Part shown: positions 44,371 to 63,639 of the stretch, in pieces
Layout of the letters: every line of letters starts with the position of its first letter
How positions within the stretch are numbered: the stretch's first letter is position 1
Source: Naegleria gruberi
Taxonomy: Eukaryota
NCBI GenBank assembly: GCA_000004985.1
Contig: GG738868.1
Strand: one strand, 5' to 3'
Length of the DNA stretch: 64,000 nucleotides
The notes under the pieces: model-generated
Database searches by the model: none
What the model saw: the letters and a program-made list of their open reading frames with translations, nothing else
What the model was told of the DNA's origin: nothing
Program-made: the position numbers and the translations under genes

Positions 44371-44489
44371 GACTACGGCCATATCACGATGAATGCACCT
44401 CATCCCTCCGATTTGAGAAGTTAAGCATCGTCGAGCCACATCAGTACTGAGGTTGGAGACAACTTGGGAACCTGTGGTGCTGTAGTCTT
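44371..44489 (+). rRNA. 5S ribosomal RNA gene (119 nt)
   Basis: GACTACGGCCATATCACGATGAATGCACC...TCCCTCCGATTTGAGAAGTTAAGC...GGTGCTGTAGTC. Conserved 5S blocks (GCCATA, GAAxGCACC, CCGATC-like, AAGTTAAGC, GGTGCTGTAG). Helix I pairs 5' GACUAC with 3' GUAGUC. Followed by a T-run (TCTTTTCTTTTTT), a Pol III terminator. Confidence 0.8.
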
Positions 44490-44659: not shown

Positions 44660-46735
44660 TTACTGTTTATTCAAAGTGAGGGAACAATAATCAGAAAGCT
44701 TTCTCATTCCATACAAGTTAGCATAATCAAGTAAGGAATTCTTAACAGGAGGAGATTTGATAGCAGAAATCATTAATAGGTCGTAACAGTACTTGATAAT
44801 CATTTCAGATATCTTTAAATCTTTGCATTCGACCATCTCATAAAATGTATCCTTTTCATTATTCTTATTTTTGAATAATTCCTCAAAGAAATGACTGTTG
44901 GAGGATAGAACAGTCTTGTGGCAATAGAATTTCTCCTTTCCAATAATTATGGTAACATCACTCGACGTTTTATCATTGAAAAGAGACGATAGATTCTTCT
45001 TTTCGCTCGCATTCTCTTGGATGTGGATATTTGGAGTTGTTCTCTCACTAATTTTGTAAGCAATTAGAGTTATATGTTTAAGAATGTTGGAATGTTGAAG
45101 AATTTGAGGTGAATCTCTCAAAAAACTAGCTGCCATGCAAATGCAATACTCAAACAATTGATTGAGGATTATATTATCAGGCAGTATTTCAATATATTGC
45201 TCTATCTTTTCCATCATAAAGTGAATATTTTCTTGACAACAAGTTTTCTTAATCTTTTTTACAAGTGACTTTTTCATTTCTATAAATTCACATCCTTGAA
45301 ATAATCCTAAAATTGACAAGATATCTATTGGATCGTAATTGTCTTGCCAATTTTTGACAGGTTCATAAATTATATCATCGATTAAATATTGTACAATTTC
45401 ATGTTGAGTTGTGCTCATCTTCTTCAGAATGTCACATTTCAACACTGATTCATAAAATTGGGGTGAAGCCATCTTGATGAGATAGCTCACTCCCTGAATA
45501 TTAGTATTATCCACACGATCCCAATAATACTTTTTCATTCTTCCACCTGAATTCAGATATTTGGTAGTTGAAATCTTTCTAATATAATTATTTCCTCCAT
45601 CGACCACATAGACATCTCCAGTTTCATTATCAATTGCAATATCTGATGGATTATTGAATTTAGCCATTCTAACTGGACCATCCTGATAACCCTCCTCGGT
45701 TGTTCCAGCAATAGTTACCAAAGTTCTATCCCTATTAATCTTACAAATTCTATTATTGTAAATGTCAGTAAATAGAATTTCACCTTCTTGACTGATGGCA
45801 ATTCCAGATGGACCATTCAACATGACATCTAAGGCATCCATTTGATCTCCATTAAATCCCTTCTCTCCTGTTCCTGCAATAGTGGTGATTATTCCACAAG
45901 TTGATATCTTTCGAATAACATTATTACCCGAATCTGAAAAATAGACATCCCCTCTCTGATTCACTGCAATTCCAGTTGGACAACGAATTCTAGCATAAAA
46001 TGCAAACCCACCATCTCCATCATACCCCTTCTCTCCAAAACCAGCCACGGTGTGAATCAATCCATTCCTTAGAGAAACCCTTCTAATTCTATTATTGTGA
46101 TAATCTGAAATGAAAAGTTCCTGTTCTCTCTCATCAATGGCAATTCCTGTTGGAAAGTACAAGTCAGCATGAATGGCTGGTATTCCATCTCCATTGTAAC
46201 CTTCTCTGCCAGTTCCTGCAATAGTTGAAATACTTCCATCCACAGCAGAAACCTTACGAATTCTATGATTGTGTCTATCAGCAATGTATAAATCACCATT
46301 CTCACATCTGGCAATTCTTGTTGGATAGCTCAACTTGGATACAGTGGCTACACAGCCATCTCTATTAAATCCTCTCTCTCCACAACCAGCAATGGTTGTA
46401 ATAATGCCTGATTTGATTCTTCTAATCTTGTGATTTCCATAATCTGAAACAAGTAATTCCCTCTCACCATTTGGTGTCCTTTCTCCCAATGCAATACCAG
46501 CTGGCGAATTGAATGGTGTCAAATGACTCGATGATTCACTATCTGAACCATAACCTTCATGGTCTATTCCTGAAATTGTACTCACATTCAATTCTGTATT
46601 AGTGTGTTCGTATTCATCAGTGATGTCATCATTAATAGCCAATGAGGAGTTGTTGACATTATTTGTTAAAATAGACAATCCTGATGATGGTGCTAATGTT
46701 CTAAATGTGGCAGCTCGAGCAAATAGTGAAGTCAT
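44660..46735 (-). CDS. NHL-repeat beta-propeller protein with C-terminal BTB/POZ domain
   Basis: Minus ORF 44660..46882. The likely start is ATG 46735 (MTSLFARAATFRTL...). Six NHL-like blades (LYIADRHNHRIRKV, LFISDYHNNRIRRV, VYFSDSGNNVIRKI, ILFTDIYNNRICKI, VYVVDGGNNYIRKI) and a BTB (DVTIIIGKEKFYCHKTVLSSNSHFFEELF). Confidence 0.7.
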   Translation of the reverse strand: MTSLFARAATFRTLAPSSGLSILTNNVNNSSLAINDDITDEYEHTNTELNVSTISGIDHEGYGSDSESSSHLTPFNSPAGIALGERTPNGERELLVSDYGNHKIRRIKSGIITTIAGCGERGFNRDGCVATVSKLSYPTRIARCENGDLYIADRHNHRIRKVSAVDGSISTIAGTGREGYNGDGIPAIHADLYFPTGIAIDEREQELFISDYHNNRIRRVSLRNGLIHTVAGFGEKGYDGDGGFAFYARIRCPTGIAVNQRGDVYFSDSGNNVIRKISTCGIITTIAGTGEKGFNGDQMDALDVMLNGPSGIAISQEGEILFTDIYNNRICKINRDRTLVTIAGTTEEGYQDGPVRMAKFNNPSDIAIDNETGDVYVVDGGNNYIRKISTTKYLNSGGRMKKYYWDRVDNTNIQGVSYLIKMASPQFYESVLKCDILKKMSTTQHEIVQYLIDDIIYEPVKNWQDNYDPIDILSILGLFQGCEFIEMKKSLVKKIKKTCCQENIHFMMEKIEQYIEILPDNIILNQLFEYCICMAASFLRDSPQILQHSNILKHITLIAYKISERTTPNIHIQENASEKKNLSSLFNDKTSSDVTIIIGKEKFYCHKTVLSSNSHFFEELFKNKNNEKDTFYEMVECKDLKISEMIIKYCYDLLMISAIKSPPVKNSLLDYANLYGMRKLSDYCSLTLNKQ

Positions 46736-46954
46736 TATGTTCTTTGTGTGGAAGTGAGAATAGGGTATTGTGTTTTTTTTTTTGATGTTGAATTCAATCA
46801 CTTCCAATGCCTGATCGAAGTCGATTTGTTTATTGATTGGCGCCAAAAAGGTGTTGAACACAAGAACATGAATCATTTTCATTTGCTACTATTATGGCTC
46901 GCCAACACAAAGACTGCTAAGGGGTGAATAGAGAAATAGATTGGCAAATTATTT

Positions 46955-52262: not shown

Positions 52263-54491
52263 CTATTTTCTATCCCAGCGCTTAAAACGAAGAGCCAGAT
52301 AAATGGCAATTCTCATAATAATGAGCATTCCAAAGAGAATTAGGACATTGCCCCAGATTGGAATGTGATTGCTACCTTCAAAATAATAATTGAGGGCATC
52401 TTCTCCAGATTTAAAACAAGTAGAGGAGGTAAGTGTGGCAACAGTTTGATTCCAATTCAATTCCGAACATAATTGCTCTGTATATGGCTCAATAGATATT
52501 TGAGAGCTTCCATTGATAGGGATTGAAGTTCCATTTCTGAATGAGCAAATATCAGTCATGTTAACGGTAGAGAGGATCTTATTAGTAGAAGAGCATTCAA
52601 AAGACATTCCACTCAATTCGGCTTGTGCCAAAGCATGAACTGAATATCTGAATAAACTGGTATATGAGAATGGATAAAACCATCCACCAATTTGAGTATT
52701 TCTAATAAGGAAACCGCTGAAGCTCCTAAAAGATGAAAATAGTTATTAATTTGCTTAGAAATTATTAAACTAAACTTACATCCAAATTGTAATGACAACA
52801 GAGAGAATCAAGTTGCCAACACCAACAGACTCACAAAGAGCTCCAATAAACAAACCAATTGATTCACTCAACCACTGAACAAGAATCATAATTGCACAAA
52901 AAATAAAAAAGTTGCCTGGATTGTTCTGAAAACCAACCAACCAATAGGCACAAATTAAGTTGACAATTGGGAAAATTGCTTCAACAGGAATGTGGACAAT
53001 AGTGTATGATGTGTAGTATGTGAGAGTGCTGTACAGATTCGATTCTCGTTCTCTTGTGAAGAGTAATCTCTGTTGAGGGAAGGTAGAAACAACAGATGTT
53101 GCAGGAACAATAGCAAAACAAGTAACAAGGAAAAATAAGGCAGAAATTCTATCTGTAATGCCCTGTTGATCTGCACTGAGCTTAAAGTAGAGAAGTCCAC
53201 AAAATAGTCCCAGAAATACTGCTTGAACAAGTTCAGAAAGGACCAACAAAGGATCTCTAAAGGTGGATCTCAGATTTCTATAGGTTAAAACGAGTAACTT
53301 TAGAAAACCTTCAATGAGGATGGATTGAATATTTCTTCTTTCATCAGAGTCTGTGAGAGGGTTATCCAACACACTACCAGTACTAGTTTGAGAGGAATTA
53401 TATTTGGATTTGTAAAATGAAGAGAGCAAATCAATCCTATTCTGAATGATTTCAAGTTGTTGTTCCATTGTCTTTTCTCCATCATTATCGATACAAATTT
53501 CAATACAAGATCCACTCTTTGCAACAACAGCTTCTGAAACAGAGGAGGTCATACTTTTTTCTTGTCTCAAATATGGATCCGAGACAATGGAAATAAGAAA
53601 ATCAGCTGGATTTGTGTCTTCTGGAATTGGATAATCAATCTTTTTCAAATAACTTTTAACCTGTGAAACTGGGCCACAGTAAACAAGTTTACCCTTGGCA
53701 AGAAGAATCACATTATCAAATATGCCAAATAACTCTGACGATGGTTGGTGAACGGTGGCTACAATTGTCTTGCCTTGCTCATGTGCCAATCTCTGCAACT
53801 TTTTTCCAATTTCTAAAGAAGTATACGAATCCAATCCTGAACTATATTCATCCAACAATAGTAAATCAGGATTGTTGATCAATTGAATAGAAAGAGAAGT
53901 TCTTTTTTTTTGACCTCCTGAAGCACCCTTCTTTTGTTCAGTACCAATTTTAACATTTCTATGAGGATATAATCCAATATCATTCTCAACCTGGAAGGTT
54001 CTTTCGCTACACATTTTCCAAATATCTGACAACTTGTTACCCTCCTTGTGTTTGTACTTTAACAGAGAAGATTCTAACAGGATTTCATGAATAGTGTCTG
54101 TGGATAATAAAATATCATCTTGATAGACATAGCCTCCTTGTTTGTGAAACAACTTTTTGGTTAGGGGTTGTCCTTTGAAAGTGATGGTTCCAGAACATCC
54201 CTTCCTTACACGTTTAGAAATAATGTCAAGCAAAGAGCTCTTTCCTCCTCCACTCCCCCCAATTATCATCGTTAATTGTCCAGAGGGAATGGTGCATGAA
54301 ATGTCAGACAGAATTTGTTTTTTCTTTCTTTTGAATCCAATATTCTCCAAAATCAAGGCTTGAGAAGCATTCGGCAATTCATGATGAAATTGCTGGGTTA
54401 AAAAAGCATCCTCCATTGACAATGTAGTACTAGTTGAAGATTCAGCAATTTGTAAAGCTTGTTGTGTTTGAAATTCGTTCATATTTGTCAT
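52263..54491 (-). CDS. ABC transporter, G-family (white-type) half transporter, 2 exons
   Basis: Minus exons 52780..54491 and 52263..52725. Walker A GGSGGGKSSLL, signature GASGGQKKRTSLS, Walker B LLLLDEYSSGLDS, then a 6-TM domain. Junction ...ITIWM|SFSGFLIRNTQIGGWFYPFSY (GTAAGT donor, TAG acceptor). Confidence 0.85.
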
Positions 54492-55478
54492 TATAATATT
54501 TTGTTATTTCTTTTTCCATTAGTAATACGAGGAGGTAGGTTTGATTTTATAGCAAACAAGGCAGCCAACCATCTCTATCGAAAATAATGCTTTGATTCCT
54601 CTTGTGATTGGTCCTCGGGTTCTGAAAAATGATTGAAGTCCAATGTCCACTCCACTGTTCATTTTCAAAAAACCACTCCAACTTGCCGCCAATTTTTAAG
54701 AATCACATGTACCTTTTTTTAATATCCATCATCAGCAAGGTCGAATTTTTCCAAATCATCATCAAATTATTTAATAGTAATTTATATTATTAAAATATTG
54801 ATCCACCATTTGTAGCACATTAATTGAATATCATCAAATTTTTGTTTAATTTTGTTCTCGTGTGTTTGTCGCTGCAATTCATGAAAAAAGATTTAAGAAA
54901 CTATGATCGCACCCGAGTATTTTAGTTTTGGTCATTTTTTTTTTGAAAAGAAAAAAAAGGTAAATTGAATGGCGGGTAGCTTTTTGAAATTGAAACGTAA
55001 CTAATTCAGCTTCGACTAGAACAATCTAAAGACAGATATCATTGTGAATAAAAATTTAAACACAGGAGTGCGTTTGTTACTAGACAATTAAGTGTGTGTA
55101 CTGTTTGAATTGAGTAAGGTGAGTGAGGTTAATGAGTGAGGTTTCAATTTCAAATCTATTCGAAATATTAAAGCTGAAAAGAGAACTGCATGTGCAACTT
55201 TGGTGAAAACCAAATTTCTTACAGCAACTATTGTACGACAATATGACTTAGTTTTAGATTCTGTTCATGTAATTATGATTCAGTATAGAATTATTGATCT
55301 TTGGGGAAATAGTCTATCATTTAACACGTGAAAAAGAGTACATCCACTTCTAAGGGTCAGTAAATATCTTTGCACCAGTCAGTCAATGCTGGATAGAATT
55401 TGGTGTTGAGGTTTGATCTGTAACCAAAGTGCAAGATTATAATTTTCTGTGGTTTTCATTGGATTCACGATCAAAAAA

Positions 55479-57050
55479 ATGTCAACAATTCATAGAATTG
55501 GGTTGTCAACAAGGTTGTTAATGATATTGTTGATTACAATCTTGTCAATCAATTCAATTGACTCATATCAACATTACAACAATATTTCAATATATTACAG
55601 TAGTGATATTTATATAGATCCATGCAATAATAACACAACACCTTATCCATGTTTTAACAAGGTATTAATACTTGACAATTCCCAAATATCTTTCTTTCGA
55701 TCACAATATCAAACTCTCTTTTTATTCAACAGTTATTTGGATTTATGTGAAATTTACACAATACAAGATACAAGTTATTGTCTTGAATGGGAAAATTACA
55801 CATTCAGTCCGTCCTTTCAAGACTATTGCATGTATTGTAATAAGGTTGACAATGAGTTGAGAAGAAAACTATGGAACGATTTCCCATTCATTCATCGAAA
55901 TGTAATCAACAACTCATCAATGGAATTGTGCAAAAGTGAGAGAGCTACACCAGTGCTGACGAGTTTTATTGGTGCTAACTTTACAATTCCAGATATTTTG
56001 TGTTATTGTGAAAAGGATCAGTTTTGGGCGAGTGATTGTAATCAAGTGCATTCGTATAGAACTTTCTATGCTTTTCAGTATTTGATTGAGATATTTTCGT
56101 TCATTGTGTCGACTGTGTCGATTATTGTGTTATTAATACCAACAGTGTTGCATTTGAGAATATTTAAATGGGTGAGAGTGCACATTAAGAAATTTAATAC
56201 CAAAATTAGAATTTTGTGGAATGGAAATGGAAATAATGAAGTGGGATTTTTAAATGATGATGAAATTTATTTGAAAAACCATTTGATTTGGTTCAATGTC
56301 AAGCATTTAGTATTATTTTTTAAAATAATAATTCCAATTACCATTTTAGTATATTCTATAGTTAGAACAGTTATTTTATTTGGATTTAAGGAATATTTTT
56401 CTGTAAGATATGTACAAGCAGTTGTATATTATATTACTTTATTATGTTTATTTACAATAACTATTATTTGGATGAATTTTGTTTTGAAAGAAAAGAAAAA
56501 ACAAGAAAATGATAATTTGTTAATTTATTTAAGAATTGTTTTTGTGATTGGAATTGTATTACTATTGAGTGTTGCTATTGCATTCACTGCTTTATCCCTT
56601 TCAGGAGAATCTATGGGAAGTGGAATTTTATTGATAATTCTAGTTTCCATTTTTATAACTTTGAGCATCTTACTTACTATATTTGGGTTAAAATTATTTA
56701 TTGATTTAACAAGAAGCAAAACGATTAAAGACCGAGCATCCTCGTTCAAATCATTGAAATTCACCAAATTTATACTTCTCATTAACATTTCCTTTATCGT
56801 TTTGTGTTGTTTCTTTTTGGCATTTGCTGTAGAGAACTTGACACAAGGTAGTTTTGAGAGAGGAACTGAATCACCAATGATATTTATTGTAATCATGGAG
56901 CCAATAGTCGAAATATTAATCATTTGGTTGTTATTGTTATTGACCTTTTACATGTCAAGTGTAAAATCAGTTTTAGATATTTATGAGTTTGTGTATTGGC
57001 CATTAAGAAGTTTAACTTGTAATTGTTTTGGAATAAGTTTGGAAAATTAA
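55479..57050 (+). CDS. 7-transmembrane receptor-like protein with Cys-rich N-terminal ectodomain
   Basis: Signal peptide (LLMILLITILSINS), a ~170-aa Cys-rich N-glycosylated ectodomain, then seven hydrophobic helices (IEIFSFIVSTVSIIVLLIP ... IFIVIMEPIVEILIIWLLLLLTFYM). No family-specific motif recognised. Confidence 0.5.
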   Translation: MSTIHRIGLSTRLLMILLITILSINSIDSYQHYNNISIYYSSDIYIDPCNNNTTPYPCFNKVLILDNSQISFFRSQYQTLFLFNSYLDLCEIYTIQDTSYCLEWENYTFSPSFQDYCMYCNKVDNELRRKLWNDFPFIHRNVINNSSMELCKSERATPVLTSFIGANFTIPDILCYCEKDQFWASDCNQVHSYRTFYAFQYLIEIFSFIVSTVSIIVLLIPTVLHLRIFKWVRVHIKKFNTKIRILWNGNGNNEVGFLNDDEIYLKNHLIWFNVKHLVLFFKIIIPITILVYSIVRTVILFGFKEYFSVRYVQAVVYYITLLCLFTITIIWMNFVLKEKKKQENDNLLIYLRIVFVIGIVLLLSVAIAFTALSLSGESMGSGILLIILVSIFITLSILLTIFGLKLFIDLTRSKTIKDRASSFKSLKFTKFILLINISFIVLCCFFLAFAVENLTQGSFERGTESPMIFIVIMEPIVEILIIWLLLLLTFYMSSVKSVLDIYEFVYWPLRSLTCNCFGISLEN

Positions 57051-57144
57051 TAAACTACTGTGGAGTGTTCATTCTAAGCAAGTTTTCTAAATATCATAAT
57101 ATACATATTTATTTAAATTGGAAACTACAAACCCTCGTATTCCT

Positions 57145-59143
57145 TTACTCACTGATAGCAATATATCTATCTCCCATATCATCACCATCCTCATCATCCT
57201 CATCATTAACTTGCACATCCCACTCATTATCAGCTGGTTGTGTATCTACAATAATTGGAAGTTCCAACAATCTGTTTCTCATAGATTTGCTAAGATAACA
57301 ACGATTCATATCTAGAACCTCAAGTCCCATAAAATCTGTTGTCAAACCTCCTTCTAACTTGTCAATAAATTTTGAAACTCCCTTATCTGATAATGTTCCT
57401 AAGGAAATATCAATAATTTTCACTCTCTTTGAAATTGAGCTATCGAAAATATCACCACAAATCTTATCAATAGACTCATAGTTTCTCAAACCCAAATATT
57501 CCAATGATGGGAAGATGCCATTCTCTTTTGGACTTAATAATTTTTCCTTTAGGAGTTCTGGTTGAAAGTCAGCTCCTTGATTGCTTGTTCCCAAGAAAAG
57601 CTCTAAGTGTGCTAATTTTGGCAAATAAGCTGTGAATAAATTACGTAAGAAAACCTCACTCAATCCTGCGGAAATAAAAGTGATTGATCTCAAATTGTGA
57701 TGAGAGAAATTGGCAGAGAGAGCAAGTTGGATTGACCCTTTTGACATCCAAAAATTTAATTTTGGCATGGCATTCAAAACTGGTGTAATATCATCAATGC
57801 AAATCCAAGAGACTTCAGCATCACTTTGATCGATATCTAAATAGTAGATACTTTTGATATTATTCAAAATTTCACTATTTTTGACGATCCAGTTTGAATA
57901 TGTCTTTGGAGGAGTATCCATTGAATCTTCAGTATAACGACCAAAGTTGATTTCATCAAAGCTTTCAATATGTTGCTTGAGTAATCTCAATTGCTTTTTA
58001 AGGCCTCCCTTAAATGTTGGACCATTATTTTCTCCAGCATTGTCTTCATCAAAAGAATGACTGAAATTTTCACCATTCGTAATCTTGGCAGTTCTTAATG
58101 AGGAAAGTAAATTTTGATCGTAGGCATATCTAAACTTGATTGATTCCAATAAACTCAAGGTAGATGTGAATTCTTCCTTCTTTGCATTAGGATAGAATTG
58201 GAGAGCCTTTTCAACAGAAATTGATTTTCTGTTAACCATTTCCTTAAACTTTTCAAAATTTAAGGAGTATCTCTGTAATTTGTCTTCACTAATATTCACA
58301 GCAACATTTGCTTCCTGTTGTTGTTCTCCTTCAGTTGGCACATCGACAGGTCTATTATCTGAGTATTGCTCATCATGGAGAAGAGAAAAGAATTTGTATG
58401 GTTCTGACACTTTTCTTGTTGATCTAATGTAATTATTCATTGTTTGAATGAGGAAAGTAATGGTTGACTCATTATTTTCATTAGTAATCATATCATTGAA
58501 ACGTTTACAAACTCTTGACAAGAGTAATAGTTCATCAATGGTTACATATTTGAAAATTGAAAATAACAAATCATCTAAAAGAGGAAAATTGGTAAATTTA
58601 ACAATATTCACCACCTCACTCTCATCAATTTTTCTCTTTTTAGCGAGAGGTTGAAAGTCTAAATCATCTTGACCATCATCAGCTTCATCGTCATCATCTT
58701 CTTCTTCCTCTTCTTCATCTTCATTATCAAATGAATACTTGGTAGCAGGTTGAAGCTCACCCAATTTAACAGAATCCCAAATAAAATCCTCCTTCACAAT
58801 GATTTTCTCCTTTTCCTTAGCGGCTGAAACTTTTGTTGTTTCCTCCTCAAATTCCTTTTCTATCAACACATCATATCACCATAATCATCATCAAAATATT
58901 ATCAAATTATTAATAAATTGTTATCATTATAGTGCGCATCATGGATCAAAGTATTATTATTCAATTAATTATCATCATCATCAATAAATTACCTGTTGTA
59001 ATCAAGTGAGTGACTGCCTTGGTAATGGAAGCAGCAGTTTTACCACCATACTTTTTAATTTCATTTTCAACTTCTTTCCGTCCCTTGCTTAGGGTACCAG
59101 AGATGCAAAATACCAATGAATTGAAAAGTTTCTTGTTGGACAT
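57145..59143 (-). CDS. BRCT - F-box - LRR protein, 2 exons (BRCT domain split by intron)
   Basis: Minus exons 58993..59143 (FNSLVFCISGTLSKGRKEVENEIKKYGGKTAASITKAVTHLITT) and 57145..58859 (EKEFEEETTKVSAAKEKEKIIVKEDFIWDSVKLGELQ completes the BRCT; then an acidic tract, F-box FPLLDDLLFSIFKYVTIDELLLLSRVCKRFNDMI and C-terminal LRRs). GTAATT donor, TAG acceptor. Confidence 0.65.
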
Positions 59144-59400: not shown

Positions 59401-61913
59401 ATGCTGAATGTTCTTCCTCCCGAAAACATTCATCAAATTTTCAGCTATTTAGATTATTTTCATGATGTTTTTCGGCATCGAAAATTAGCAGTCCCCGATT
59501 TTAATATTATTCACGAATGGACCACTGATGATTTTAGTGCTACAATGGATTTGGAATATTCGGAAGACTTGTTAGATAACAACACTTCATGGGAACCTCT
59601 CTTTCTTACATGTAAATCATTTTATGAAGCCTTTGAACTGTTTCAGCCTTCAGAAATTAAAATACAAATGGTGAATGGAGAGAAAAAGAATTGGGCAAGA
59701 TTTTCAATTGATAGGGATTATTTGCAACTAGTGCGGAGTCTTAAAATAATTCCTATTCATGATAACAAGCAGTGCACAGAGGTGTGAGATTACAAGATAG
59801 GAATTATGTGGAGAAGGCATTGGAAAGGATTATGAAAAGGTATGAAAATGTATTTGATCGAGTTGAATATGTCAACTGTTTTGCACCTTTGGGGAGGAAT
59901 TATTGGACTAAGAGTGGAGTGAATTATAATTTGAAAAAGATTTTTAGAAATGTGAAATATCTAGTTTCAAATTATAGTTTAGCCCAAACTACTATCTCAA
60001 GTTTTCTTAATAGATCATTTTTTATTGAAACTGATCATATTGAACTCAATCACTACAATTCTATTTATTACACAGAGGAAAGGGAAATTGAGCATTTGAG
60101 TTTGGCTCAAAAATACCTTGGTAAACGATCATTTCACATAGAGATATTTCTTGCCAATTCAATATTTTATGAACGTTTTGATACTTGTAAATATATTATC
60201 AAAAATTTCAATATTGACATTGGATACTTTCAACATTTTTGGAATACTGTCTTTTCGAGCTTTATCAATATTCATGACAAGCATTTAGATATTTTACGTT
60301 TAATTTATATGAAATACAGATCATTTAGGATTTTTATTGCAAACATGAACAGCTTGAAACAGTTGAAAATGCTTGAAAAACATCAATTTATTAACTTTGA
60401 TCTAAAAAGATGTTTGAACATTAGTTTAATCAAAGATTTATACTCTAGTGATATTGTTATGTCAAAATTCAGCAAAAAGTACAACATTAATTTTAACAAA
60501 ATTGGAAAGTATGGTTTTTCATTGTTGAGCTTGGATGGAATTGACAGTTTTTATTCTTGTAAATGGGGCAGTCCTGATGTTTTTGGTGTGACACCTTTTA
60601 TGCACAACTTTACCAAAGATATTTCACAAACTGTACAGCACATTATGATGAAGGATAATTTTGGAAATAATTTTTTACACTACTTGTTTTCGAATGATCA
60701 AAACAGAGGTCGATCTTATTTAGTAACATATTCGGACATTCGATTTGCTAAAAAAATTCCTAAAGACGTGTTACTTAAATTGGAACAAGAAGAGAATGAT
60801 ACAGGATTCACACCAGCAGAAATAGGTATTGCCAATGGGTGGAATATGTTCCAGTTTCAACCTTTACCCTCAAAAATATTCCGTTACAAAAGAATTGAAA
60901 TGTTAAATGATAAGTTATCTCGTCCATTTGCACTATTAGATGGACTTGAGGTGAATATGGCTATACTAATGGCTGTAGGTTCTGGAAACAAACATCCACA
61001 TTTGGATTATACTATATATCAGGATATCAATTATAGAGATGTAAATGGAAAGCACTTAATTCATTATTTTACTGAGTATGATACCAGTAAAATCTACAAT
61101 GCCACACAAATTAGATCATGTCAGCAAATATTACAGACACCAGACCAAAATGGAACCATTCTGTTGCAGACATGCAATAATTGGTATGATCATTTATTAT
61201 ATGCAACTACTTGCTATTGGAAAGGTTCTCCTACTATCAACATTTCTGGTTACTTTGATAATTTAGGATTTAACAGGATTATGTATGGCATGTTAAAATT
61301 CACTTCTACTACTTTCAAATATCTCATTTCAGAATCTATTGTACTTGGATTTGATTACTCTAATGAAAATTATCCAAGACTATTCCATATTACCTTTCAA
61401 AATAAGGATGATAATATTCACTTTGAAATTGACAGTGGATTAATTCCAAGAATAACAGGAGGTTTTCAATGGTATGACGGAGAGGAAGGAGATGAATTTT
61501 CACACTTTGTAATCAGATTGTGTATTCAACAATTCTTGAAAGACAACCATTATGCCTTTCAGTCGGTGGTCAGTTGCTTGGTTGCAAGAGGATTGAAATT
61601 TGATGTTGTGAAAAATTCCAGAGGAAAGACAGCACTTGATTTACTGAACGAATTTAAAGAAAATAATCCTTCAATTGACTTGGGAAGTATTTGCAAACAG
61701 GTAACCAAAGGATCCACTAAAAAATCACAAGCGCTGGTTGAGTTTAAAATCAAACATACCAAATGCCCAGAGGAGGTAATTATTTCCCAAACAAATACTT
61801 CATTAGTGGTGAAGAATAGTTTTCTTTTATATTACCACGTTTCTATCAAAAGGAGTCTTTACTTTGCACAAAAAGAAATGAGCACCGATAACAAAGGAAT
61901 GATTTCTCAATAA
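59401..61913 (+). CDS. F-box-like N-terminus plus large uncharacterised domain; two ORFs offset by one frame (frameshift or pseudogene?)
   Basis: ORF 59401..59787 (LPPENIHQIFSYLD F-box-like) and ORF 59772..61913 (713 aa) overlap by 16 nt in different frames. No intron can be fitted in the overlap. Confidence 0.45.
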
Positions 61914-63565: not shown

Positions 63566-63639
63566 TGCCTCCCTTGGGAATCGAACCCAAGACCTCTGTC
63601 TTACTAGGACAGCGCTACTGCCAACTGAGCTAGGAAGGC
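63566..63639 (-). tRNA. tRNA-Thr (anticodon AGU)
   Basis: Minus-strand 74-nt sequence GCCTTCCTAGCTCAGTTGGCAGTAGCGCTGTCCTAGTAAGACAGAGGTCTTGGGTTCGATTCCCAAGGGAGGCA. 7-bp acceptor stem, anticodon stem CTGTC/GACAG with loop CTAGTAA (anticodon AGT), T-arm TTGGG-TTCGATT-CCCAA. Followed by a T-run. Confidence 0.85.

What the first reader, a model, noticed from the sequence alone, without database searches (positions are those of the whole stretch)
55479..57050. 7TM receptor-like gene with Cys-rich ectodomain
A 524-aa intronless ORF with signal peptide, a ~170-aa N-glycosylated Cys-rich extracellular region and seven predicted TM helices. This is a GPCR-like topology with no family motif I recognise. 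It is a candidate for a lineage-specific sensor.
Basis: inference. Interest (0 to 1): 0.5.

Follow-up and report, generated by a model that had tools for sequence, protein, structure and literature searches.

The report
Orphan Naegleria seven-helix receptor-like gene
This is a real, intact gene of the amoeba Naegleria gruberi that encodes a membrane protein with a disulfide-rich outer domain and seven membrane helices, from a small family found only in Naegleria and close relatives; it is built like a G-protein-coupled receptor but belongs to no described receptor family.

Summary
Window 55479..57050 (+) is an uninterrupted 523-codon ORF with a signal-peptide-like N-terminus, a 166-residue ectodomain (10 Cys, 7 N-x-S/T sequons) and seven hydrophobic helices. 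Charge bias puts the N-terminus outside and the C-terminus inside.

The window is Naegleria gruberi: the neighbouring ABCG gene is 100% identical to NAEGRDRAFT_67626. This ORF itself is absent from the public protein collection, so it is apparently unannotated.

An exhaustive HMMER search of 1.84 billion representative proteins found only six relatives. Four come from N. gruberi (tandem pair NAEGRDRAFT_75571/75572), N. lovaniensis and Willaertia magna; two are metagenome proteins. Pfam and PDB sequence searches found nothing.

Conservation is highest on the cytoplasmic loops and tail (0.40-0.51) and lowest on the extracellular loops (0.14-0.20). That pattern fits a receptor coupling to a conserved intracellular partner.

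Verdict: a lineage-restricted, undescribed 7TM receptor-like family. Signalling function is inferred, not shown. Interest is moderate.

The parts
55479..57050 (+). Complete single-exon coding sequence (523 aa plus TAA stop) of the 7TM receptor-like protein
   Evidence: Open frame. Full-length collinear alignment with N. gruberi paralogue P0001. A metagenome contig (L004) covering the 3' 579 coding bases shows 11 substitutions and no indels there, while the 94-bp downstream spacer carries two 11-bp indels.
55479..55565 (+). Signal-peptide-like N-terminus, residues 1-29: n-region with H5/R6/R12, h-region LLMILLITILSI, then small residues S23/S26/S29
   Evidence: Hydropathy peak at residues 7-25. 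Helix 4-21 in the model. A hydrophobic N-terminus is also present in P0001, P0002 and P0007. The cleavage site was not predicted with a trained tool.
55566..56063 (+). Cys-rich ectodomain, residues 30-195, with 10 Cys, 7 N-x-S/T sequons and the family motifs NNTTPYPCF and CYCE..W...C
   Evidence: C90, C151, C175, C177 and C187 are invariant in the family. C49 and C58 are both replaced by Ser in N. lovaniensis P0004, which suggests a C49-C58 disulfide. The predicted fold is mixed alpha/beta at pLDDT about 50-76.
56064..56150 (+). TM1 (residues 196-224), with invariant P221
   Evidence: Hydropathy peak at 202. Model helix 187-224. Invariant columns.
56151..56294 (+). Long cytoplasmic loop 1 (residues 225-272) with a basic amphipathic helix and the family motif KFNTxIRxLWTG. 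Invariant residues: K230, R233, N240, R244, G249, D260, F272
   Evidence: helix 227-248; 9 K/R; mean pairwise identity 0.42.
56295..56381 (+). TM2 (residues 273-301), with invariant H276, Y292 and R296
56403..56483 (+). TM3 (residues 309-335), ending in the invariant W331-x-N333 at the cytoplasmic end. There is no DRY motif
56484..56516 (+). Cytoplasmic loop 2 (residues 336-346), basic (EKKKQ); K341 and D345 invariant
56517..56594 (+). TM4 (residues 347-372), with invariant L347, L351 and R352 at its cytoplasmic start
56619..56693 (+). TM5 (residues 381-405), with invariant G382, L385 and G403
56694..56762 (+). Cytoplasmic loop 3 (residues 406-428) with the family motif S-F-x-S-L-K-F-T-K-F. 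S422, S425 and F428 are invariant; the motif's T429 and F431 fall at the start of TM6
   Evidence: 8 K/R; identity 0.43.
56763..56834 (+). TM6 (residues 429-452). No CWxP motif
56880..56954 (+). TM7 (residues 468-492), with membrane-embedded acidic residues E474 and E478 (E or D in relatives). No NPxxY motif and no Lys
56955..57047 (+). Cytoplasmic tail (residues 493-523) with a predicted helix after TM7, the invariant motif D-x-Y-E-F-x-Y-W-P and a C514-x-C516 cluster. This is the most conserved region of the protein
   Evidence: helix 495-516; identity 0.51.

Best explanation
The ORF is a functional gene of Naegleria gruberi. It encodes a type-I-oriented membrane glycoprotein with seven transmembrane helices, from a small, previously undescribed family restricted to vahlkampfiid heteroloboseans (Naegleria, Willaertia).

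Shown here:
- an intact ORF;
- a signal-like N-terminus;
- a conserved Cys framework in a 166-residue ectodomain;
- seven TM helices oriented N-out/C-in;
- a predicted helix bundle that superposes best on G-protein-coupled receptors;
- conservation concentrated on the cytoplasmic face.

Inferred mechanism:
- The disulfide-stabilised, glycosylated ectodomain and the variable extracellular loops bind an external cue, such as a prey, surface or soluble ligand.
- Binding rearranges the 7TM bundle.
- The strongly conserved cytoplasmic surface then engages a conserved intracellular partner. That surface comprises the basic amphipathic helix in loop 1, W-x-N at the end of TM3, the basic loop 2, S-F-x-S-L-K-F-T-K-F before TM6, and a post-TM7 helix with DxYEFxYWP and a Cys cluster that could be palmitoylated.
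- The most plausible partner is one of Naegleria's many heterotrimeric G-protein alpha subunits or an arrestin-like protein.

In short, it works like a GPCR with a ligand-binding ectodomain, but it is not a member of any described GPCR class.
For: - Real gene: 523 stop-free codons in 33% GC DNA, chance about 2e-18.
- Paralogues and orthologues at 29-45% identity align over the full length.
- Constraint in a 95.5%-identical metagenome contig: no coding indels against two 11-bp indels in the 94-bp spacer, and dN/dS about 0.47 from only 11 differences.
- Topology: one signal-like peak plus 7 hydrophobic peaks. K+R is 24 on the predicted inside against 4 on the outside loops. 7 of 9 sequons and 10 of 15 Cys lie in the ectodomain.
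- Fold: AF2 with 8 sequences gives pLDDT 61, pTM 0.57 and TM helices mostly at 70-84.
- Foldseek PDB and BFVD top lists are dominated by cellular or viral GPCRs, although none is significant.
- Conservation: cytoplasmic loops and tail 0.40-0.51 mean pairwise identity, extracellular loops 0.14-0.20, ectodomain 0.33. 24 of the 27 invariant residues after the ectodomain lie in the cytoplasmic loops or the cytoplasmic halves of the helices.
- Context from the literature: N. fowleri has many G-alpha subunits, including slow-exchanging ones that presumably need a receptor GEF. It has only one cAR-like GPCR candidate plus unclassified 7TM proteins, and it has arrestin-like genes (PMC9283941).
Against: - No sequence similarity to any GPCR family. 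Pfam gave 0 hits at E<=1 and only noise at E<=10 for all 8 members. PDB sequence profiles gave nothing.
- Outside the family, nothing reached E<=0.001 among 1.84 billion representatives.
- DRY, NPxxY, CWxP and a GPS-like motif are absent. ECL2 has no Cys, so the TM3-ECL2 disulfide cannot form.
- The structural model has only moderate confidence. AF2 may default to a GPCR-like packing for any 7-helix protein.
- Foldseek E-values are all 0.1 or worse.
- The 48-residue cytoplasmic loop 1 is atypical for GPCRs.
- No expression, localisation, ligand or coupling data exist.
Confidence: 0.5

Rival explanations
1. It is a non-signalling 7TM membrane protein of the secretory or endocytic pathway, in the manner of the GOLD-domain seven-transmembrane (GOST) proteins TMEM87, GPR107/108, GPR180 and Wntless. 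In that case the luminal Cys-rich domain would bind cargo or lipid, and the 7TM bundle would act in trafficking or lipid handling rather than G-protein coupling.
For: - The architecture is the same: signal peptide, a luminal domain of about 170-200 aa with disulfides, 7TM and a short tail.
- No G-protein-coupling motifs are present.
- Many 'GPCR-like' orphan families have turned out not to signal through G proteins (general knowledge).
Against: - The Pfam families for this group (Lung_7-TM_R, GpcrRhopsn4) give no hit for any of the 8 members, even at E<=10.
- The predicted ectodomain is mixed alpha/beta with six short helices, not an all-beta GOLD sandwich (moderate to low confidence).
- GOST proteins are pan-eukaryotic, whereas this family is confined to Heterolobosea.
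Confidence: 0.2
2. It is a 7TM channel, transporter or membrane enzyme rather than a receptor. Candidates are SWEET/PQ-loop-type carriers, microbial-rhodopsin-type proteins and CREST/PAQR-type hydrolases.
For: - Conserved acidic residues lie inside TM7 (E474, and E478 with D at the same position in relatives) and invariant R296 lies at the outer end of TM2. These could line a polar pathway.
Against: - There is no 3+1+3 internal repeat: hhalign of TM1-3 against TM5-7 gives probability 0.2%.
- TM7 has no Lys for a retinal Schiff base.
- Only one invariant His (H276) is present, whereas CREST/PAQR enzymes need a multi-His/Asp metal site, and PAQRs have the opposite orientation (family features from established knowledge).
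- No Pfam transporter family is hit.
- Conservation is concentrated on the cytoplasmic loops rather than within the membrane core.
Confidence: 0.12
3. It is a surface adhesion or recognition glycoprotein. The ectodomain would mediate contact with prey, substrate or other cells, and the 7TM part would serve mainly as an anchor.
For: - The ectodomain is Cys-rich and sequon-rich, and its Cys number varies among paralogues (10-15).
- The family has expanded to three copies in N. gruberi, including a tandem pair. This is typical of surface-interaction genes.
Against: The strongest conservation is on the cytoplasmic face and tail. A mere anchor would not need this. A single TM helix or a GPI anchor would be enough for adhesion.
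Confidence: 0.13
4. It is a chance ORF or a decaying pseudogene copy of the annotated tandem pair NAEGRDRAFT_75571/75572, which would explain why it is not annotated.
For: The exact protein is absent from the public protein collection although its neighbours are present. dN/dS against the metagenome relative is only moderately low (about 0.47), and rests on just 11 differences.
Against: - 523 codons without a stop in AT-rich DNA, chance about 2e-18.
- All 10 ectodomain Cys, all family motifs and the start Met are retained.
- Only 45% identity to the nearest paralogue with the frame intact means long survival under constraint.
- Indels occur only outside the coding region in the 95.5%-identical contig.
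Confidence: 0.03

Closest known systems
Class A (rhodopsin-like) GPCRs, delta-branch and MRGPR-type (e.g. MRGPRD 9dqj, OXGR1 8yyw, P2Y1 7xxh)
   Different: Identity is 8-13%, with no 7tm_1 Pfam hit. DRY, NPxxY and CWxP are absent, and ECL2 has no Cys for the TM3-ECL2 disulfide. Cytoplasmic loop 1 has 48 residues instead of about 5-10. The N-terminal domain is large and Cys-rich. Foldseek E-values are not significant.
Frizzled/Smoothened (class F) receptors
   Same: A signal peptide, an extracellular domain with 10 conserved cysteines, and then 7TM.
GOST proteins (TMEM87A/B, GPR107, GPR108, GPR180, Wntless)
   Different: No Pfam hit to Lung_7-TM_R or GpcrRhopsn4. The ectodomain is not predicted as a GOLD beta-sandwich. 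The taxonomic range is narrow, whereas GOST proteins are pan-eukaryotic.
Naegleria 7TM-RGS proteins and the cAR-like GPCR candidate NF0059410 (Bosch et al. 2022, PMC9283941)
   Same: They occur in the same organisms and are 7TM proteins. Some have complex Cys-rich extracellular N-termini and are proposed to feed into the expanded G-alpha repertoire.
   Different: This family has no RGS domain: the tail is only 31 residues. It has no EGF, lectin or GPS motifs and no Dicty_CAR Pfam hit. Direct sequence comparison with those proteins could not be run, because none was retrievable here.
N. gruberi NAEGRDRAFT_75571 / 75572, N. lovaniensis C9374_003314, Willaertia magna ABK040_013750 ('predicted/hypothetical proteins')
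   Same: These are true homologues at E 1e-59 to 1e-140. They align over the full length and share the NNTTPYPCF, CYCE..W...C, KFNTxIRxLWTG, SFxSLKFTKF and DxYEFxYWP motifs.
   Different: Identity is 29-45%. The window copy has the smallest ectodomain Cys count (10, against 12-15 in the full-length relatives). It lies in a different genomic neighbourhood, between an ABCG gene and an F-box gene; the N. lovaniensis, W. magna and metagenome copies lie beside an importin-5-like gene. None of these proteins has any functional annotation.

Membership tests
Class A (rhodopsin-like) GPCR, Pfam 7tm_1 | Significant match to the 7tm_1 profile | tested here: not met
   No Pfam hit at E<=1 for the window protein. 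No 7tm family among hits at E<=10 for the 8 members.
Class A (rhodopsin-like) GPCR, Pfam 7tm_1 | Hallmark motifs: D/ERY at the end of TM3, CWxP in TM6, NPxxY in TM7 | tested here: not met
   The pattern scan found none in TM3, TM6 or TM7 of any of the six members. The two stray matches lie in a loop and in an ectodomain.
Class A (rhodopsin-like) GPCR, Pfam 7tm_1 | Seven-helix bundle with GPCR connectivity, N-out/C-in | tested here: met
Class A (rhodopsin-like) GPCR, Pfam 7tm_1 | Guanine-nucleotide exchange on a heterotrimeric G protein upon ligand binding | not testable with these tools
   Needs biochemistry.
Frizzled/Smoothened (class F) | Fz cysteine-rich domain (PF01392) and Frizzled 7TM profile (PF01534) | tested here: not met
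Adhesion/secretin GPCR (class B) | 7tm_2 profile and a GAIN/GPS autoproteolysis motif before TM1 | tested here: not met
   No Pfam hits. No C-x-C...HL-type motif.
cAMP-receptor-like (Dicty_CAR), Git3, Stm1/PQ-loop and PTH11-type fungal/amoebal GPCRs | Match to the respective Pfam profiles | tested here: not met
   No Pfam hits at E<=10 for any member. No 3+1+3 internal repeat of the kind found in PQ-loop proteins.
GOST proteins (TMEM87 / GPR107 / GPR180 / Wntless) | N-terminal GOLD-like beta-sandwich domain plus a Lung_7-TM_R or GpcrRhopsn4 7TM profile | tested here: not met
Microbial rhodopsins | Lys in TM7 forming the retinal Schiff base | tested here: not met
   TM7 contains no Lys.
Heterolobosean orphan 7TM family (NAEGRDRAFT_75571-like; defined here) | Full-length homology with a conserved Cys framework (C90, C151, C175-x-C177, C187) and the motifs NNTTPYPCF, KFNTxIRxLWTG, SFxSLKFTKF and DxYEFxYWP | tested here: met
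   E 1.5e-112 to P0001. All six hits have E<1e-59.

The most novel reading that the evidence does not exclude
This family could be a previously unrecognised, Heterolobosea-specific class of true G-protein-coupled receptors, unrelated in sequence to classes A-F and cAR. A disulfide-rich ectodomain would capture the ligand, and the unusually long, conserved cytoplasmic loop 1, loop 3 and tail would form a new kind of G-alpha or arrestin docking surface. It would then be a candidate for the 'missing' exchange factor for the slow-exchanging G-alpha subunits of Naegleria, including the pathogen N. fowleri. The copy in this window would be an unannotated third N. gruberi paralogue.
Probability: 0.25. 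Interest if true: 0.65.

Novelty: new variant of a known kind. Interest (0 to 1): 0.42.

Why it matters
Naegleria has an unusually large set of G-alpha subunits, 7TM-RGS proteins and arrestin-like genes, but almost no recognisable GPCRs. Bosch et al. 2022 (PMC9283941) report one cAR-like candidate in N. fowleri. A conserved, lineage-restricted family with a GPCR-like fold and a strongly conserved cytoplasmic face is therefore a concrete candidate for the upstream receptors of that system.

The family has at least one member in N. lovaniensis, the closest non-pathogenic relative of the brain-eating N. fowleri. No relative outside Heterolobosea, human proteins included, was detectable by sequence. 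If these proteins are functional receptors, they would be parasite-specific surface targets.

On a practical level, the gene appears to be missing from the public N. gruberi protein set, and the Willaertia magna model is truncated. Proteome-based surveys of Naegleria receptors have therefore probably under-counted this family.

If it turns out to be a non-signalling 7TM protein, it is an ordinary orphan membrane protein of limited wider interest.

Tried and rejected
1. Pfam scans of the window protein (E<=1) and of all 8 family members (E<=10) gave no meaningful family.
2. PDB sequence searches with 2- and 8-sequence profiles gave only noise, at E 0.6 and 8.6.
3. The word-indexed search of 5.8 billion proteins found only P0001, then P0001 plus the fragment P0003 when given the profile. 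That tool missed relatives which the exhaustive search found.
4. The exhaustive HMMER search found nothing outside the six close relatives.
5. AlphaFold2 with 2 sequences was unusable at pLDDT 41.7. The 8-sequence run was used instead.
6. Foldseek against AFDB50 was unavailable. Foldseek against PDB and BFVD gave no hit below E 0.01.
7. Three attempts to find more relatives in metagenome contigs failed: one gave an error because the alignment was too divergent, and two scans found nothing.
8. Context look-ups for the window protein and for the N. gruberi paralogues P0001 and P0002 returned 'not on record'. Synteny with the tandem pair therefore could not be examined.
9. There is no synteny between the window and the N. 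lovaniensis, W. magna or metagenome loci apart from the gene itself.
10. The test for an internal repeat, which would point to a SWEET/PQ-loop-like origin, was negative.
11. Literature searches for the locus tags and accessions of the paralogues found 0 papers. They are also not listed in the supplementary tables of the N. fowleri genomics paper, which lists candidate adhesion GPCRs. The N. gruberi genome paper is not held.
12. Rejected: a Frizzled-like CRD (10 Cys, but no profile hit and different spacing); a rhodopsin-type protein (no TM7 Lys); and a CREST/PAQR hydrolase (only one invariant His, and PAQRs have the opposite orientation).
Full report
**1. The observation**

Window 55479..57050 (+) is an uninterrupted reading frame of 523 codons plus TAA. 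An in-frame GTG at 55449 is irrelevant for a eukaryote. The first ATG (55479) aligns with the start Met of the closest homologue. The window has 30-36% G+C. At that composition a 523-codon stop-free run has a chance of about 2e-18.

Kyte-Doolittle hydropathy shows an N-terminal hydrophobic segment at residues 7-25, preceded by H5/R6/R12 and followed by small residues. It shows exactly seven further peaks, centred near residues 202, 277, 314, 353, 383, 431 and 470.

The region between the signal-like segment and TM1 (about residues 30-195) holds 10 of the protein's 15 Cys and 7 of its 9 N-x-S/T sequons. No sequon falls in a predicted cytoplasmic loop. K+R counts are 9, 5, 8 and 2 for the predicted cytoplasmic loops and tail, against 3, 0 and 1 for the extracellular loops.

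The '524 aa' figure includes the stop codon. No trained signal-peptide or TM predictor was available, so the cleavage site and glycosylation remain inferred.

**2. Where the window comes from, and the gene's annotation status**

- The neighbouring minus-strand ORF 52776..54491 is an ABCG half-transporter. It is 100% identical to N. gruberi NAEGRDRAFT_67626 (P0008, on a 427,589-bp scaffold). The window is therefore Naegleria gruberi.
- The 7TM protein itself is not in the 15-billion-protein collection by exact look-up.
- No near-identical full-length entry was returned by either homology search. It appears to be an unannotated gene.
- Only a 192-aa metagenome fragment (P0003, 96% identical) matches it closely.
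- The DNA of that fragment (L004) is 95.5% identical to window 56450..57248. It has 11 substitutions and no indel in 579 coding bases, but two 11-bp indels in the 94-bp spacer that follows. Crude dN/dS is about 0.47, from 7 non-synonymous changes over 455 sites and 4 synonymous over 121. This is weak but consistent evidence of coding constraint.

**3. Relatives**

A profile of the window protein plus P0001 was scored by HMMER against 1.84 billion representative proteins. It gave six hits, all with E<1e-59, and nothing else at E<=0.001. The hits are identified:

| Protein | Source |
|---|---|
| P0001, P0002 | N. gruberi NAEGRDRAFT_75571 and 75572; consecutive tags on the same 174,974-bp scaffold, so a tandem pair |
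| P0004 | N. lovaniensis C9374_003314 |
| P0006 | Willaertia magna ABK040_013750 |
| P0005 (cluster-mate P0007) | metagenome protein |
| P0003 | metagenome fragment |

- Pairwise identities split the family into two groups: an N. gruberi group (window, 75571, 75572; 35-49%) and a group of N. lovaniensis, W. magna and the metagenome protein (41-44%). Identity between the groups is 26-35%.
- For scale, the ABCG neighbour is 54% identical between N. gruberi and N. fowleri or N. lovaniensis, and 48% to W. magna. The 7TM family therefore evolves faster than this neighbouring gene.
- The N. lovaniensis, W. magna and metagenome copies all sit divergently next to an importin-5-like gene. Two of them have a GCN2-type kinase downstream.
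- The window copy sits between the ABCG gene and an F-box gene, and shares no other gene with those loci.
- The W. magna gene model is N-terminally truncated, because homology continues upstream of its annotated start.
- Two further scans of metagenome contigs found no additional relatives.
- No paper mentions the paralogues.

**4. Family anatomy**

The alignments show these conserved features:

| Region | Conserved feature |
|---|---|
| Ectodomain | NNTTPYPCF near its start |
| Ectodomain | Invariant C90, C151 and C187, plus a membrane-proximal C-Y-C-E-x4-W-x3-C |
| Cytoplasmic loop 1 | K-F-N-T-x-I-R-x-L-W-T-G within a 48-residue loop |
| End of TM3 | W331-x-N333 |
| Loop 2 and start of TM4 | Basic loop 2, then D345-x-L-L-x-P-L-R |
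| Loop 3 into TM6 | S-F-x-S-L-K-F-T-K-F |
| Tail | D-x-Y-E-F-x-Y-W-P followed by a Cys cluster |

- C49 and C58 are both replaced by Ser in N. lovaniensis. This argues that they form one disulfide.
- Ectodomain Cys counts vary between 10 and 15 among the full-length members.
- Mean pairwise identity by region is 0.40-0.51 for the cytoplasmic loops and tail, 0.31-0.44 for the TM helices, 0.33 for the ectodomain and 0.14-0.20 for the extracellular loops.
- 24 of the 27 invariant positions after the ectodomain lie at or near the cytoplasmic face.

**5. Family searches**

- Pfam gives no hit for the window protein at E<=1, and only scattered noise at E<=10 for all eight members. This covers 7tm_1/2/3, Frizzled/Fz, Dicty_CAR, Git3, Lung_7-TM_R, GpcrRhopsn4 and the other 7TM families in Pfam.
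- PDB sequence profiles give nothing.
- D/ERY, NPxxY, CWxP and GPS-like motifs are absent from the relevant helices. ECL2 has no Cys. TM7 has no Lys.
- TM1-3 and TM5-7 are not repeats of each other (hhalign probability 0.2%).

**6. Structure**

- AlphaFold2 on two sequences failed, with pLDDT 41.7.
- With the eight-sequence alignment the model reaches mean pLDDT 61 and pTM 0.57, and most TM blocks reach 70-84.
- The model shows helices 187-224, 274-301, 307-339, 346-375, 378-413, 416-456 and 467-492. It also shows an extra helix in loop 1 (227-248) and one after TM7 (495-516). The ectodomain is mixed alpha/beta at lower confidence.
- Foldseek against PDB and BFVD lists mainly cellular or viral GPCRs, but with E>=0.1 and E>=0.027 respectively. 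AFDB50 was not available.
- I read this as a GPCR-like seven-helix arrangement at moderate confidence. It is not evidence of homology to any GPCR class.

**7. Interpretation**

- Shown: the gene is real and conserved. It encodes an N-out 7TM protein with a disulfide-rich ectodomain, from a family confined to vahlkampfiid heteroloboseans, with the cytoplasmic face as its most constrained part.
- Inferred: the protein is a receptor. Its ectodomain and variable outer loops would bind an external cue, and its cytoplasmic surface would engage a conserved partner.
- The inferred partner is plausibly a component of the large Naegleria G-protein system. That system has many G-alpha subunits, some of them slow exchangers, arrestin-like genes, and only one recognisable GPCR candidate (PMC9283941).
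- Rivals are a GOST-like trafficking protein, a channel, transporter or enzyme, an adhesion protein, and a pseudogene. They are listed with their evidence in the rivals section. None is excluded except, in practice, the chance-ORF or pseudogene reading.

**8. Novelty and score**

- The kind (7TM, GPCR-like architecture with a ligand-binding ectodomain) is known.
- The family is undescribed: it has no Pfam model, no literature, and only 'predicted' or 'hypothetical protein' labels. It fails every tested membership criterion of the described GPCR classes. I therefore rate it a new variant of a known kind.
- Lineage-specific orphan 7TM families are common in protists, so a specialist would not be very surprised.
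- The interest lies in the shortage of GPCR candidates in Naegleria, the unusually conserved cytoplasmic face, and the apparent annotation gap. Interest is 0.42.

Noticed in passing
window 55479-57050: The window is N. gruberi, because the neighbouring ABCG gene is 100% identical to NAEGRDRAFT_67626. Yet this 523-aa ORF has no identical or near-identical full-length entry in the public protein collection, so it looks like an unannotated gene in the reference annotation.
   Followed up: partly
window 44371-44488 (+): A complete 5S rRNA gene (Rfam RF00001, 97.6 bits) lies alone between protein-coding genes, just downstream of an NHL-repeat/BTB gene at 44660-46882 (-).
   Followed up: no
window 63566-63639 (-): A tRNA-Thr (anticodon AGT) gene was found by both ARAGORN and Rfam.
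   Followed up: no
window 52266-54491 (-): This ABCG half-transporter gene is NAEGRDRAFT_67626 (721 aa). The mechanical ORF stops at 52776, but the annotated protein continues to 52266, which implies a short intron or a frame change near 52776. About 1 kb of non-coding DNA (54492-55478) separates it, divergently, from the 7TM gene.
   Followed up: partly
window 57145-58869 (-), 59401-59787 (+) and 59772-61913 (+): Two F-box-containing genes lie immediately downstream of the 7TM gene. The first is convergent, only 94 bp from its stop, and has acidic tracts at both ends. The second seems split over two overlapping ORFs (intron or frameshift). Its large ORF has no Pfam hit.
   Followed up: no
L003:7851-9606 (Willaertia magna JBEGDK010000122.1): The W. 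magna family member (KAL9646890, 464 aa) is modelled without its N-terminus. tblastn with the window protein extends homology about 150 bp upstream of the annotated start, and the gene has introns (three separate matching pieces).
   Followed up: partly
L001:3745-14451, L002:104-7795, L003:4089-9606: There is conserved micro-synteny in N. lovaniensis, a JGI metagenome contig and W. magna. The 7TM gene is divergently paired with an importin-5-like gene and, in two of the three loci, followed by a GCN2-type kinase. The N. gruberi window copy does not share this neighbourhood.
   Followed up: partly
L004:1-821 (ENA ERZ929261 metagenome contig) vs window 56450-57248: This environmental contig is 95.5% identical to the 3' part of the gene and the spacer, presumably from a close N. 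gruberi-complex strain. It carries TTG (Leu) where the family-invariant W331 (TGG) stands, and the gene caller started the fragment at the next Met.
   Followed up: partly
window 56525-56923 (-): A 132-aa antisense ORF lies inside the 7TM gene. It has no support and is most likely a by-product of the codon composition of the sense strand.
   Followed up: no
(tool behaviour): The word-indexed protein search with the single query missed the 96%-identical fragment P0003 and all relatives except P0001. The exhaustive search found six. Absence from the indexed search alone should therefore not be read as absence from the database.
   Followed up: yes
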